DNA from: a virus | Lineage: Duplodnaviria; Heunggongvirae; Uroviricota; Caudoviricetes | Reading direction: 5' to 3' (one strand) | DNA: 12,628 bases | IMG/VR virus record: IMGVR_UViG_2690316231_000010 | Coordinates: 1 to 12,628 of that record | In this document: positions 8,767 to 10,947 of the stretch, in pieces | Layout of the letters: each line of letters begins with the position of its first letter | How positions within the stretch are numbered: the first letter of the stretch is position 1 | Notes under the pieces: model-generated | What the model was told of the DNA's origin: nothing | Seen by the model: only the letters and a program-made list of their open reading frames with translations | The model's database searches: none | Made by a program: the position numbers and the translations under genes

Positions 8767-9063
8767 ATGAAAACCTTACGTTGCATGGCCTACCAGCAGA
8801 ACGGCGTTTACGTAGCTGCATGTTTAGACCTGTCATTGGCAGCGCAAGCAGATACTATGAAAGAAGCTGTAAACAAACTGGATGAGCAGATTAAAGATTT
8901 TTTCACTGAAGCGCTATCAGAGCCGGAATATGCAAAACAACTACTAAGTCGGAAAGCACCTTTATCTATGTGGCTTAAGTATTGGGTAATTGCATTTCAG
9001 GTTTTTGTCAGAAAACGAGGTGAAGCAAAACTCTTTGCTGAGCCTTGTGATGCTCATGCTTAG
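8767..9063 (+). CDS. HicB-like (DUF1902/UPF0150-type antitoxin fold) protein, 98 aa, in the rexA slot
   Basis: N-terminal motif NGVYVAACLDLSLAAQADTMKEAVNKLDEQI fits the GxYVAxxPDLPGxxxQGDTxEEAxxNxxEAI signature of HicB N-domains; strong SD gaggaga; hydrophobic C-terminal tail with no obvious RHH/HTH. Motif-based call, not a search. Confidence 0.5.
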   Translation: MKTLRCMAYQQNGVYVAACLDLSLAAQADTMKEAVNKLDEQIKDFFTEALSEPEYAKQLLSRKAPLSMWLKYWVIAFQVFVRKRGEAKLFAEPCDAHA

Positions 9064-9074
9064 GGTTACATTAC

Positions 9075-9359
9075 ATGTTCTTGAAAAAGCTTACTCCTTT
9101 GAAATACGACGAGGTAATCAGGGGACTTAAGAAAATGGGGTTTGAAATGAAACCTAAAACAGGAACCTCTCACGAACAGTGGGTTCTCAAGAACAGTAAA
9201 GGAAAATGGGTGGTTACAGTTGATAAGCATCACGCCCCATTCTCCAGAGATTTAATAAAATCCATGGCTAAGCAAGCTGGACTGAAAGCTCGTCACTTTC
9301 ATGCGTTATGCAGAGGTGACGCAACGCTTGAGGATATAGGATTCCAAATCATTAGCTAA
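9075..9359 (+). CDS. HicA/YcfA-like toxin-family protein, 94 aa, in the rexB slot
   Basis: Motif VIRGLKKMGFEMKPKTGTSHEQWVLKNSKGKWVVTVDKHHAPFSRDLIKSMAKQAGL fits the HicA signature (GF...GSH...vtv..H...l..i.kqaGL); begins 11 bp after the upstream ORF; followed by a strong terminator. Confidence 0.55.
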   Translation: MFLKKLTPLKYDEVIRGLKKMGFEMKPKTGTSHEQWVLKNSKGKWVVTVDKHHAPFSRDLIKSMAKQAGLKARHFHALCRGDATLEDIGFQIIS

Positions 9360-9572: not shown

Positions 9573-9601
9573 TTGACCCAATAAAGTACATATCGTACTA
9601 T
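9573..9601 (+). promoter_or_regulatory. pL-like promoter (-35 TTGACC, 17-bp spacer, -10 TACTAT) with overlapping OL operator sites
   Basis: ttgacc (9573-9578), 17 bp, tactat (9596-9601), oriented toward N; operator-like sites atacaaagtgtta (9528-9540) and gtacatatcgtac (9586-9598) resemble the OR sites. Confidence 0.65.
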
Positions 9602-9646
9602 TTAACCGTCAGCAGGACGCTGGAAGCCAAACGGAACAGACTGGCA

Positions 9647-9693
9647 GGCTCTTTAAACAACGTCGAACTCTCGACTACGTGGCTGAAAAGCCA
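9647..9693 (+). promoter_or_regulatory. nutL-like site: boxA (gctcttta) plus boxB hairpin (tggctgaaaagcca)
   Basis: ggCTCTTTaaacaacg...ctacgtGGCTgaaaaGCCa parallels the nutR arrangement (shared aacaacg and ctacgt spacer motifs, GAAAA loop); lies between pL and N. Confidence 0.55.
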
Positions 9694-9791
9694 GATCACC
9701 CAACCACATGAGCTGTGGGATGCAATGCCGAAGCAACCGTCTCAGGAGGAGCTTCGAGATTGCATCGCCAAAGTTTATTCGGGAGGAATCT

Positions 9792-10114
9792 ATGTCCAGA
9801 AAAACAGAATTTAAAGGCACCGCAGCTTCTCGCCGTAGAGCTCGTCGCGCAAATCTGCAAAGTCAGAAGGCGATCAGCTCCGACAAGCTACACAGGCCAA
9901 CCCCTTCACGAGTGGTCTTGCAATGCAAGCGCAAACCAGCAATGAGAGCAGAAGTAATAACACTGACAACGCTGACCAGAAAATATGAAGGCTCAACTTG
10001 TCTTCCAAACGTAGCTCTTTACGCGGCAGGCTACCGGAAATCCAAACAACTGACAGCAAGATGACTTGTGTTGGTCGCCAGAAAATGAAATTAGGCAGCA
10101 AACCACTTATTTGA
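9792..10114 (+). pseudogene. N: N antiterminator homologue with an apparent -1 frameshift
   Basis: Start MSRKTEFKGTAASRRRARRANLQ (arginine-rich motif, SD gggagga) is in one frame and ends at the stop at 10062-10064; the conserved N C-terminus TCVGRQKMKLGSKPLI* (lambda ...TCSGRQKIKGKSIPLI) is in the +2 frame ending 10114. The span is 323 nt, one short of 324 (107 codons plus stop). Confidence 0.55.
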
Positions 10115-10122
10115 GGTGAGAT

Positions 10123-10209
10123 ATGGAAGAAGAATTTGAAGAGTTCGAAGATCATCCTCAGGATGTGATGGAACAATACCAGGACTATCCGTATGACTAC
10201 GACTATTGA
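10123..10209 (+). CDS. Possible 28-aa acidic peptide (MEEEFEEFEDHPQDVMEQYQDYPYDYDY)
   Basis: Strong SD gaggtga 4 nt upstream of the ATG, 8 nt after the N stop; overlaps the ral remnant start; could be a chance ORF. Confidence 0.25.
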   Translation: MEEEFEEFEDHPQDVMEQYQDYPYDYDY

Positions 10210-10290
10210 TAAGAATCAATGGTGTAGACAATACGAACGACGACAATGATTGCCAGAGAACTTGGTAAACAGAACTACAAGGCTGCCTGA
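10193..10290 (+). pseudogene. ral: ral remnant: N-terminal MTTTIDKNQWC and C-terminal ...IRTTTMIARELGKQNYKAA joined out of frame (internal ~100-bp deletion)
   Basis: Both ends resemble lambda Ral (66 aa) as I recall it, but only 98 bp remain and the halves are in different frames, with a stop at 10247-10249. Confidence 0.5.
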
Positions 10291-10294
10291 TGGT

Positions 10295-10319
10295 GGCCTT
10301 TATTTTTGTCCGTAAATAA
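10295..10319 (+). repeat. Direct repeat copy 1 (ggcctttatttttg-N4-taaataa), 5' of the 149-aa gene
   Basis: ggcctttatttttgtccgtaaataa, matched by copy 2 at 10816-10839 (ggcctttatttttggcataaataa); includes a terminator-like T-run and a possible -35 (ttgtcc) for the downstream gene. Confidence 0.6.
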
Positions 10320-10348
10320 TTTCATGCTTATTACAATCAAGGTGATAT

Positions 10349-10798
10349 ATGGAAGAACAAGCAAACAAGATTCTCGTAGAACTACTGCAAAAAGCCAGTA
10401 ATGGAATAGACGCGGCTGTTTCATTTAGCCAGGCACAGATTCCTGATGTTGTTCATCAGTTGCTGCTATGGAATATGGTTGACAGTCTGATTAAAACATT
10501 AGTGGCCATTCTAACAATCCCACTGGTTTTCTGGTTTATGAAGAAGCAGTGCCAAAGAGTTGAGACAGGTAAAATCGGTGATGAAGGATATTCATGGGAG
10601 AAAGGAAATCCCAAATACAGGCCGACAATGGTTTGGGATAGCAAAGGTGATATTAATCTTCTTATCATGCCATTGGTTGGAGTTTTGACTCTGTGGGGGA
10701 TTTTTATTATTGGTGTAGTAACCAATATGACTTGGTTAAAAATTTGGCTGGCCCCAAAGCTTTACCTTATCGAATATGCAGCATCATTGGTTAGGTAA
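10349..10798 (+). CDS. Hypothetical membrane protein, 149 aa, two predicted TM helices; moron-like insertion between ral and ea10
   Basis: SD aaggtga; hydrophobic segments LIKTLVAILTIPLVFWFM and INLLIMPLVGVLTLWGIFIIGVV; flanked by direct repeats and followed by its own terminator; lambda has no gene in this ral-ea10 interval. Confidence 0.6.
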   Translation: MEEQANKILVELLQKASNGIDAAVSFSQAQIPDVVHQLLLWNMVDSLIKTLVAILTIPLVFWFMKKQCQRVETGKIGDEGYSWEKGNPKYRPTMVWDSKGDINLLIMPLVGVLTLWGIFIIGVVTNMTWLKIWLAPKLYLIEYAASLVR

Positions 10799-10802
10799 TT
10801 TC

Positions 10803-10828
10803 AGGCCGCATAGTCGGCCTTTATTTTT
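10803..10828 (+). terminator. Rho-independent terminator after the 149-aa gene (overlaps direct repeat copy 2 at 10816-10839)
   Basis: aggccgcatagtcggcctttattttt: 6-bp stem (aggccg/cggcct), 6-nt loop, T-run. Confidence 0.65.
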
Positions 10829-10947
10829 GGCATAAATAACAGAATAAACACTGCACTGTGTATTCATTCCAACGAGTGAATACACGGAGCAATGTCGCTC
10901 GTAACTAAACAGGAGCCGACTTGTTCTGATTATTGGAAATCTTCTTT

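What the first reader, a model, noticed from the sequence alone, without database searches (positions are those of the whole stretch)
10123..10290. ral reduced to an out-of-frame deletion remnant, overlapped by a strongly acidic 28-aa ORF coupled to N
Lambda-like Ral N- and C-termini are joined out of frame with about 100 bp missing, so the restriction-alleviation gene is a pseudogene. Directly after the N stop, with a strong SD, is a 28-aa ORF of unusual composition (13 of 28 residues D/E, 5 Tyr) that overlaps the ral remnant start. It may be a chance ORF created by the rearrangement, or a small acidic DNA-mimic-like peptide.
Basis: seen in the sequence. Interest (0 to 1): 0.4.

Follow-up and report, generated by a model that had tools for sequence, protein, structure and literature searches.

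The report
Lambda orf28 microgene beside dead ral
The restriction-alleviation gene ral of this E. coli prophage is a deletion pseudogene that RefSeq already flags, and the acidic 28-codon ORF beside it is phage lambda's long-annotated orf28, which comparison shows to be a conserved small protein gene of unknown function that survives when ral is lost.

Summary
The sequence observation holds, with two corrections. ral (10193-10290) lacks exactly 103 bp relative to lambda and phage 2B8 and is frameshifted. RefSeq already annotates it as a frameshifted pseudogene in the identical E. coli 2013C-4465 prophage. The acidic ORF (10123-10209) has 12 D/E, not 13. It follows an out-of-frame phage-21-type N remnant; the functional N stops at 10064.

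The ORF was not made by the rearrangement. It is lambda orf28 (lambdap47, PHROG 16060), 27/28 identical, and in lambda it overlaps intact ral by the same 17 nt.

I found a homologue (22-28 aa, in-frame indels, Shine-Dalgarno kept) upstream of every ral relative inspected, from Escherichia to Proteus, Providencia, Erwinia and Pantoea. Variation is concentrated at third codon positions (11/11/42) and pooled pN/pS is 0.20. It also persists without ral. It lies behind N alone, or overlaps the stop of a Lar-family restriction-alleviation gene, where pN/pS is 0.05.

The 103-bp ral deletion has at least 10 junction haplotypes and occurs in about 5% of carriers.

So orf28 is a real small-protein gene whose function is still unknown. 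Both features are already annotated. A role in type I restriction alleviation is the best guess, at about 0.3.

The parts
9792..10064 (+). Functional antiterminator N gene (90 aa, 933W/H-19B-type C-terminus ...YRKSKQLTAR*)
   Evidence: Pfam PF25694 N_peptide, E 5.5e-32, profile positions 5-100 of 100. PHROG 271.
10062..10114 (+). Out-of-frame remnant of a phage-21-type N 3' end (..TCVGRQKMKLGSKPLI*). It marks the recombination joint in front of the orf28-ral cassette.
   Evidence: One mismatch to the phage 21 N 3' end over about 52 nt.
10113..10119 (+). Shine-Dalgarno GAGGTGA of orf28, overlapping the remnant stop codon
   Evidence: Read from the sequence. The same motif is kept in phage 21, Erwinia, Cronobacter and Kluyvera homologues.
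10123..10209 (+). orf28 homologue: 28-aa acidic small protein gene, intact
   Evidence: 27/28 identical to lambda orf28 NP_040623.1. PHROG 16060, E 4.6e-18, full length. Purifying selection in the family.
10193..10249 (+). ral 5' remnant (MTTTIDKNQWC then frameshifted, stop at 10247-10249)
   Evidence: Alignment with lambda and 2B8. PGAP calls it 'antirestriction Ral family protein, frameshifted'.
10226..10233 (+). Junction of the 103-bp deletion: the crossover interval inside AGACAAT|A
   Evidence: The best ungapped self-match of lambda ral has an offset of exactly 103 nt.
10246..10290 (+). ral 3' remnant (MIARELGKQNYKAA*), now in the orf28 frame but cut off from it by stop codons
10279..10310 (+). 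Terminator-like hairpin plus T-run that closes the orf28-ral cassette. The ral stop codon lies in the stem.
   Evidence: The same element follows ral in lambda, 2B8 and E212 and follows the ral-less orf28 genes.

Best explanation
The window is the early-left (pL) operon of a lambdoid prophage at the lambda att site of E. coli. Behind N sits a phage-21/lambda-type two-gene cassette, orf28-ral, closed by a terminator.

Shown:
- ral has lost 103 bp between two short imperfect repeats and is a frameshifted pseudogene.
- The acidic 28-aa ORF is lambda orf28, a small protein-coding gene kept by purifying selection.
- orf28 normally overlaps the ral start by 11-17 nt.
- orf28 is also kept, still under selection, in lineages that have lost ral entirely. 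That explains why it is intact here.

Inferred mechanism:
- orf28 is translated from its own strong Shine-Dalgarno early after induction or infection. In the ancestral layouts it is translationally coupled to the stop of N or of Lar.
- Its product is an unstructured peptide of about 3.7 kDa and charge about -12, rich in Tyr and Phe. It acts by binding a basic, nucleic-acid-binding surface.
- Because its fixed neighbours are Ral and, in another lineage, Lar (the two known enhancers of type IA modification), the most likely target is the type I restriction-modification complex or Ral/Lar themselves.

My confidence by step: identity with orf28 0.95; real protein-level function 0.85; a restriction-alleviation role about 0.3.
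For: Identity:
- Lambda orf28 sits at 34271-34357c and overlaps ral by 17 nt. Its peptide differs from the window's only at E10D.
- It matches PHROG 16060 over its full length.

Conservation:
- The ORF is present in lambda, 21, P22, L, Sf6, CUS-3 and HK544.
- It is also present upstream of ral relatives from Providencia, Proteus, Erwinia, Pantoea, Kluyvera and Cronobacter that are about 61-78% identical to lambda Ral. These copies are 22-28 aa with in-frame indels only, and the Shine-Dalgarno is kept.
- It is open in 102 of 104 unselected ral-bearing IMG/VR stretches.

Coding signature outside the ral overlap (codons 2-22, 66 distinct DNA sequences):
- Extra states per codon position are 11/11/42. 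Pooled pN/pS is 0.20 and the median pairwise dN/dS is 0.11.
- Pro12 uses all four codons.

Independence from ral:
- Nine IMG/VR contigs have N ... Lar-family gene (PF14354, 33.8 bits against a cutoff of 28.6), then orf28 overlapping the Lar stop, then a terminator, with no ral. In this group pN/pS is 0.05 and variable sites by codon position are 0/3/13.
- Five more contigs have N, orf28 and a terminator only.
- orf28 is open in all 31 loci with the 103-bp ral deletion.

ral deletion:
- The gap is 103 bp.
- 35 of 5426 complete E. coli genomes have the window-type junction and 10 have other types, out of 904 genomes carrying the segment.
- 26 IMG/VR contigs carry it, with at least 10 junction haplotypes on different ral backgrounds.

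Known biology: Ral converts the EcoKI methyltransferase to de novo activity (PMC3874165, PMC12707154). Lar does the same from the Rac prophage (King and Murray 1995, as cited in PMC4041452).
Against: - There is no direct evidence of translation. The lambda ribosome-profiling paper (PMC3718152) is not held.
- CRISPRi knock-down of orf28 gave no plaque defect, but on a host without type I restriction (PMC10695390).
- Five contigs carry orf28 with neither ral nor lar nearby, so a restriction role is not obligatory.
- The Lar adjacency may be a leftover. A ral-like ...GCTGCCTAA end still follows orf28 there, so an ancestral lar-orf28-ral layout may simply have lost ral.
- Some 103-bp-deletion alleles carry changes at otherwise invariant residues (E2G, Y24D, Y26C). 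This hints at relaxed constraint after ral loss and pulls the other way.
- The peptide has no similarity to Ocr, ArdA or any Pfam, NCBIfam or PDB entry.
- AlphaFold2 of a natural orf28-Ral fusion was low confidence.
Confidence: 0.6

Rival explanations
1. orf28 is a functional peptide, but its target has nothing to do with restriction. It could bind the arginine-rich N protein or another basic host protein (a nucleoid protein, or a partner of acidic SSB-type tails) as part of early host takeover.
For: In phage 21, Erwinia, Cronobacter, Kluyvera and several IMG/VR contigs, orf28 follows N directly, with the N stop inside its Shine-Dalgarno. Five contigs have N-orf28-terminator with no ral or lar within 1.2-1.5 kb. 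Charge is about -12 with an aromatic, acidic C-terminus.
Against: It occurs with unrelated N types (lambda, 21, P22, 933W), so there is no N-type specificity. In lambda and P22 it is separated from N by sieB yet stays glued to ral. 20 of 25 divergent loci have Ral or Lar as the immediate neighbour.
Confidence: 0.3
2. orf28 is only a leader cistron. Its translation delivers ribosomes to the overlapping ral start, or opens a hairpin there, and the peptide itself does nothing.
For: The 11-17-nt overlap with the ral ATG is conserved. A predicted hairpin in the first ral codons contains the orf28 stop; the fold z-score is -2.5 in lambda and -4.2 in the window.
Against: Amino-acid conservation extends over the part that does not overlap ral (pN/pS 0.20). 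The ORF is kept at pN/pS 0.05 where ral is absent. ral has its own AGGA 8 nt upstream of its ATG.
Confidence: 0.08
3. The acidic ORF is a chance reading frame, or a by-product of the deletion that destroyed ral.
For: It is short (28 codons) and lies next to a rearrangement. PGAP does not call it.
Against: The identical frame is present with intact ral in lambda and hundreds of records. It lies wholly upstream of the deletion. It shows a coding signature.
Confidence: 0.01
4. The conservation reflects an RNA or DNA element (for example a processing or regulatory site in the pL transcript), not a protein.
For: Within the lambda/P22 group the segment is more conserved at the DNA level than ral: 2 differences in 87 nt between lambda and P22.
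Against: Across genera the changes are concentrated at third codon positions, indels are multiples of three, and the start codon and Shine-Dalgarno are always kept. The high DNA identity between lambda and P22 fits a shared mosaic segment that also covers the sieB promoter side.
Confidence: 0.03

Closest known systems
Phage lambda orf28 (lambdap47, NP_040623.1; PHROG 16060)
   Same: 27 of 28 residues, the same length, the same 17-nt overlap with the ral start, and the same place in the pL operon.
   Different: There is one conservative change (E10D), shared with phage 2B8. Here it follows an N 3' remnant as in phage 21, whereas in lambda sieB lies between N and orf28. Its partner ral is dead.
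Ral, the restriction-alleviation protein of lambda (Pfam PF11058)
   Same: The remnant keeps the first 11 codons and the last 14 codons of a lambda/2B8-type ral, plus its terminator.
   Different: 103 bp are missing, which removes three of the four conserved Cys codons and shifts the frame. It is a pseudogene, as PGAP already states.
Lar-family restriction alleviation proteins (Pfam PF14354; Rac prophage Lar/RalR)
   Same: In nine metagenomic viral contigs a Lar-family gene takes the place next to orf28 that ral has elsewhere, with start and stop overlapping.
   Different: The window has no Lar gene. Lar lies upstream of orf28, whereas ral lies downstream. Whether the pairing is functional is unknown.
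Acidic DNA-mimic anti-restriction proteins (T7 Ocr, ArdA)
   Same: Very acidic, expressed early, and encoded beside functions aimed at type I restriction-modification systems.
   Different: Ocr and ArdA are folded dimers of more than 100 residues that copy the shape of bent B-DNA. orf28 has 28 residues, no sequence similarity and no confident fold.
T4 Stp, a 26-residue peptide that acts on the type Ic enzyme EcoprrI (from my own knowledge, not tested here)
   Same: It is a precedent for a phage peptide of under 30 residues that modulates a type I restriction enzyme.
   Different: Stp is not acidic and I know of no sequence relationship. No comparison was run here.

Membership tests
lambda orf28 / PHROG 16060 | Full-length sequence match to the family profile | tested here: met
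   E 4.6e-18, residues 1-28 on profile positions 1-28 of 28. 27/28 identical to NP_040623.1.
lambda orf28 / PHROG 16060 | Position in the pL operon, ending 17 nt inside the ral start, with its own Shine-Dalgarno and ATG | tested here: met
lambda orf28 / PHROG 16060 | Evidence that the frame is protein-coding (selection) | tested here: met
   Codon-position variation 11/11/42 and pN/pS 0.20. pN/pS 0.05 in ral-less lineages.
lambda orf28 / PHROG 16060 | Translation observed | not testable with these tools
   The ribosome-profiling paper is not held. No expression data are available.
Ral (PF11058) | Uninterrupted ORF of about 59-67 aa with the conserved C-x5-C-x2-C-x5-C block and the WAIRTTAMIARE helix in one frame | tested here: not met
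   A 103-bp deletion removes codons for C17, C20 and C26 and shifts the frame. It is a pseudogene.
DNA-mimic anti-restriction proteins (Ocr, ArdA) | Sequence or profile similarity to Ocr or ArdA | tested here: not met
   No Pfam, NCBIfam or PDB sequence match.
DNA-mimic anti-restriction proteins (Ocr, ArdA) | A folded surface whose carboxylates copy the DNA phosphate pattern, and binding to the type I methyltransferase core | not testable with these tools
   The peptide is below the 30-aa limit of the structure tool. The fusion model was low confidence.
Gene translationally coupled to N | The stop codon of the functional N lies within or next to the Shine-Dalgarno or start of the ORF | tested here: not met
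   The functional N stops at 10064, 59 nt upstream. Only the dead 21-type N remnant stops at 10112-10114. The feature is met in phage 21, Erwinia and Cronobacter prophages.

The most novel reading that the evidence does not exclude
orf28 is a 22-28-residue acidic counter-defence peptide. It would be the missing partner through which Ral, and independently Lar, re-programme type IA restriction-modification enzymes. Alternatively it would be a minimal anion or DNA mimic that blocks them by itself. Either way it would be the smallest known anti-restriction factor, overlooked in phage lambda since its sequence was published.
Probability: 0.25. Interest if true: 0.7.

Novelty: already known. Interest (0 to 1): 0.35.

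Why it matters
For this window, the finding reduces to two features already on record: a ral pseudogene that PGAP flags, and the lambda orf28 homologue.

The comparison adds something I did not find in the literature searched. orf28 is a real, selected small-protein gene, spread across Enterobacterales prophages. It sits next to the two known modification-enhancing anti-restriction genes and outlives ral.

No solved structure related to Ral by sequence exists, and in the reviews read here its action on EcoKI is described only as a suggested direct interaction (PMC3874165). A conserved, always-adjacent peptide is therefore a cheap and testable lead.

The recurrent 103-bp deletion also shows that ral is often dispensable for resident prophages.

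Tried and rejected
- tblastn of the peptide against phages found nothing because of the low-complexity filter. I used blastn instead.
- The large protein search refuses queries under 40 aa. I searched with Ral and read the upstream DNA of its relatives.
- The genome-contig scan returned mostly lambda contamination in unrelated assemblies. Only the Kluyvera locus was informative.
- The first IMG/VR scan kept only loci whose Ral is 100% identical to lambda's, so it was biased. I replaced it with pattern scans.
- The metagenome scan mostly re-found the IMG/VR contigs.
- The lambda ribosome-profiling paper is not held. A search for the peptide string in papers found nothing.
- AlphaFold2 of the natural frameshift fusion P0005 (orf28 residues 1-20 plus Ral) gave mean pLDDT 65, with 47-62 over the acidic part. 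It gave no conclusion, so I ran no fold search.
- The repeat behind the deletion: the best ungapped self-match in ral is at an offset of exactly 103 nt, but at 15 of 24 matches it is no better than shuffled sequence (116 of 300 shuffles). I therefore call it short homology, not a significant repeat.
- RNA folds show a hairpin over the orf28 stop and the first ral codons. Its stem coincides with conserved Ral codons, so I did not treat it as evidence.
- Comparing orf28 variation with and without intact ral is confounded by ascertainment, and I left it as a weak hint.

Full report
**What the window is.** The window is 100% identical to the chromosome of E. coli 2013C-4465 (NZ_CP015241.1). It lies in a lambdoid prophage next to ybhC, the lambda attachment region. 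On the + strand it carries the early-left operon. The gene order is:
- cI (LexA family);
- a DUF1902/HicA pair;
- N;
- the region of the finding;
- a 149-aa ORF;
- ea10 (DUF2528), cIII, kil, gam, bet and exo.

**Checking the observation.**
- The ATG at 10193 opens MTTTIDKNQWCRQYERRQ*. MIARELGKQNYKAA* (10246-10290) lies in another frame.
- Aligned with lambda and with phage 2B8 (98% identical in the flanks), the window has one clean gap of 103 bp inside ral. The gap removes three of the four conserved cysteine codons.
- PGAP already annotates these coordinates as 'antirestriction Ral family protein, frameshifted'.
- The 28-aa ORF MEEEFEEFEDHPQDVMEQYQDYPYDYDY (10123-10209) is real. GAGGTGA lies 3 nt before its ATG, and it overlaps the ral ATG by 17 nt.
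- Two details need correcting. D+E is 12, not 13.
- The stop codon just before the ORF (10112-10114) is not that of the functional N.
- N is 9792-10064, a full-length Pfam N_peptide match with a 933W-type C-terminus.
- Bases 10062-10114 are an out-of-frame copy of the phage-21-type N 3' end (..CVGRQKMKLGSKPLI*), a recombination joint.

**What the acidic ORF is.**
- Lambda carries the same ORF: orf28 (lambdap47, NP_040623.1, 34271-34357 complement). It is 27/28 identical and overlaps intact ral by the same 17 nt.
- It matches PHROG 16060 (unknown function) over its whole length. It has no Pfam, NCBIfam or PDB relative.
- It is listed as a non-essential hypothetical gene in a lambda CRISPRi screen (PMC10695390). 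It has been annotated in a P22-like phage (PMC4837284).
- The deletion therefore did not create it. The deletion lies wholly downstream.

**Is orf28 a real gene?**
- The ORF is intact in lambda, 21, P22, L, SW-70, Sf6, CUS-3 and HK544.
- I then took Ral relatives that are about 61-78% identical to lambda Ral, from Providencia, Proteus, Erwinia, Pantoea, Kluyvera and Cronobacter, and read the DNA upstream.
- Every one has a homologous acidic ORF of 22-28 codons that ends 11-17 nt inside ral. Each has a Shine-Dalgarno and an ATG or GTG start, and length differences are only in multiples of three.
- Examples are MEDDIEEFDEHPDDDMSQYQDYPYEYDY (Providencia), MDEEEFDEHPADDMSQYQDYPYEFDY (Pantoea) and MEEFDQHPDDDMSQYQDYRYEY (Erwinia).
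- Over 66 distinct DNA sequences, codons 2-22 (outside the ral overlap) show 11, 11 and 42 extra states at codon positions 1, 2 and 3. Pooled pN/pS is 0.20 and the median pairwise dN/dS is 0.11. Pro12 uses all four codons.
- In a sample of IMG/VR stretches picked by a ral 3' motif, and so not selected on orf28, the ORF was open in 102 of 104 usable cases.
- This is the signature of a translated, selected peptide. It does not fit a chance frame or a purely nucleic-acid element.

**Independence from ral.** A degenerate pattern for the divergent (..HPxDDM..YQDY) form found 25 viral contigs.
- Eleven have orf28-ral.
- Nine have a Lar-family restriction-alleviation gene instead (Pfam PF14354, 33.8 bits against a cutoff of 28.6). 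Its stop overlaps the orf28 start, and orf28 is followed at once by a terminator with no ral.
- Five have N-orf28-terminator only.
- In the Lar-linked group the six distinct sequences differ almost only synonymously. pN/pS is 0.05 and variable sites by codon position are 0/3/13, including the C-terminal codons that no longer overlap anything.
- orf28 therefore has a function of its own. That is the simplest reason it is intact in this window while ral is dead.

**The ral deletion.**
- The window-type junction is in 35 of 5426 complete E. coli genomes, including O55:H7 and O157:H7 strains. Other junction types are in 10 more. 904 genomes carry the segment, and most of those have intact ral.
- IMG/VR has 26 contigs with the deletion.
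- All alleles lack exactly 103 bp, but there are at least 10 junction haplotypes.
- These haplotypes switch from 'left-type' to 'right-type' bases at three or more different points inside GGRCAATWCRARCG..GCAATGAT. They also sit on different ral backgrounds (lambda-like, 2B8-like, ST415-like).
- The best ungapped self-match in lambda ral is at an offset of exactly 103 nt. It is weak (15 of 24 matches, no better than shuffles).
- I read this as recurrent short-homology deletion. One old event followed by patchy conversion is not excluded.
- ral also decays by a 1-nt frameshift (Kluyvera), by IS insertion (L258) and by whole-gene loss.
- orf28 stays open in all 31 loci with the deletion. A few carry changes at otherwise invariant residues (E2G, Y24D, Y26C). 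This is a weak and confounded hint of relaxed constraint.

**Mechanism.**
- Shown: gene identity, selection on the peptide, its fixed neighbours, and its survival without ral.
- Inferred: it is translated early from its own strong Shine-Dalgarno. In the ancestral layouts it is coupled to the stop of N (phage 21, Erwinia, Cronobacter) or of Lar.
- Inferred: the product is a peptide of about 3.7 kDa with charge about -12, no basic residues and seven aromatic residues, which would bind a basic surface.
- Ral makes the EcoKI methyltransferase act de novo, probably by direct contact (PMC3874165, PMC12707154). Lar has the same phenotype (King and Murray 1995, cited in PMC4041452).
- Two unrelated genes with that function are the immediate partners of orf28 in 20 of 25 divergent loci. 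On that basis I put a role in type I restriction alleviation first, at about 0.3.
- An unrelated early target, such as N or a nucleoid protein, comes second at about 0.3.
- A pure leader-cistron role is unlikely, given the selection seen without ral.
- Structure prediction did not help. The peptide is under the size limit, and a natural frameshift fusion (P0005) modelled poorly.

**Comparison and verdict.**
- The window's ORF is a member of the lambda orf28 family, and all testable defining features are met. The ral copy fails the Ral definition.
- The ORF is not a member of the Ocr/ArdA DNA mimics. It has no similarity to them and is far too small, although it might work in a loosely similar way.
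- Both features are already annotated elsewhere, so I rate novelty as 'already known' and interest as modest.
- What is worth passing on is the comparative result. orf28 is a conserved small protein gene tied to Ral and Lar and retained without them, which I did not find in the literature searched.

Noticed in passing
window 10062-10114: An out-of-frame phage-21-type N 3' end is fused behind a 933W-type N, so the N stop TGA at 10062-10064 comes from the 21-type sequence. In the phage 2B8 record the resulting 40-aa ORF is annotated as 'antitermination protein N', which looks like an annotation artefact.
   Followed up: partly
window 10291-10830: A 149-aa predicted membrane ORF (10349-10798, PHROG 3054, unknown function) lies between two copies of the GGCC-TTTATTTTTG terminator. 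It starts with AAGGTGATATATGGAAGAA, identical over 19 nt to the lambda orf28 start. Phage mEpX2 (L009 629-811) has a different 60-aa ORF behind the same N-3'-end/Shine-Dalgarno linker. The site behaves as a cassette slot with conserved boundary sequences.
   Followed up: partly
window 8767-9359: A DUF1902 (HicB-like) gene and a HicA toxin gene sit between the repressor gene and pL, where lambda carries rexA and rexB.
   Followed up: no
L266, L269, L270, L276, L278, L282-L284, L286 (for example L284 13216-13449, minus strand): A Lar-family restriction-alleviation gene (PF14354) lies directly upstream of a ral-less orf28 homologue, with its stop overlapping the orf28 start. A terminator follows. 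No isolated phage in the phage collection has this layout.
   Followed up: partly
L124 404-475; L126 520-591: In some alleles with the 103-bp deletion, PGAP names the 23-aa leftover (MVWAIR..MIARELGKQNNKAA) as an intact 'antirestriction Ral family protein' (WP_353654437.1, WP_106425302.1). It lacks all four cysteines.
   Followed up: no
L032 1498-1694; L258: ral is also broken in other ways: a 1-nt deletion near the 3' end in a Kluyvera prophage, and an insertion-sequence-like element replacing its 5' part in an IMG/VR contig.
   Followed up: no
L011-L026, L029-L031, L033: ral segments 100% identical to lambda's occur on short or low-coverage contigs in assemblies of Pseudoxanthomonas, Nocardioides, Paenibacillus, Bradyrhizobium, Vibrio and others. 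This is most likely lambda DNA contamination of those assemblies.
   Followed up: no
P0001, P0005 (protein clusters): 89-aa proteins fuse orf28 residues 1-20 to full-length Ral through a 1-nt deletion (..YQ-TIR-MTTTID..). One cluster has 76 member sequences from read-archive assemblies. Whether this is a real variant or a sequencing error is unknown.
   Followed up: no
window 9592-9814: PGAP annotates a 'frameshifted hypothetical protein' that overlaps the pL/nutL leader and the N start. A promoter-like site (TTGACC-17-TACTAT) lies at 9573-9601.
   Followed up: no
window 10196-10226; lambda L003 equivalent: A predicted RNA hairpin (CUAUUGAU-loop-AUCAAUGG) in the first ral codons contains the orf28 stop codon. 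The fold z-score is -2.5 in lambda and -4.2 in the window. The stem coincides with the conserved Ral codons TID..NQW, so its meaning is unclear.
   Followed up: partly
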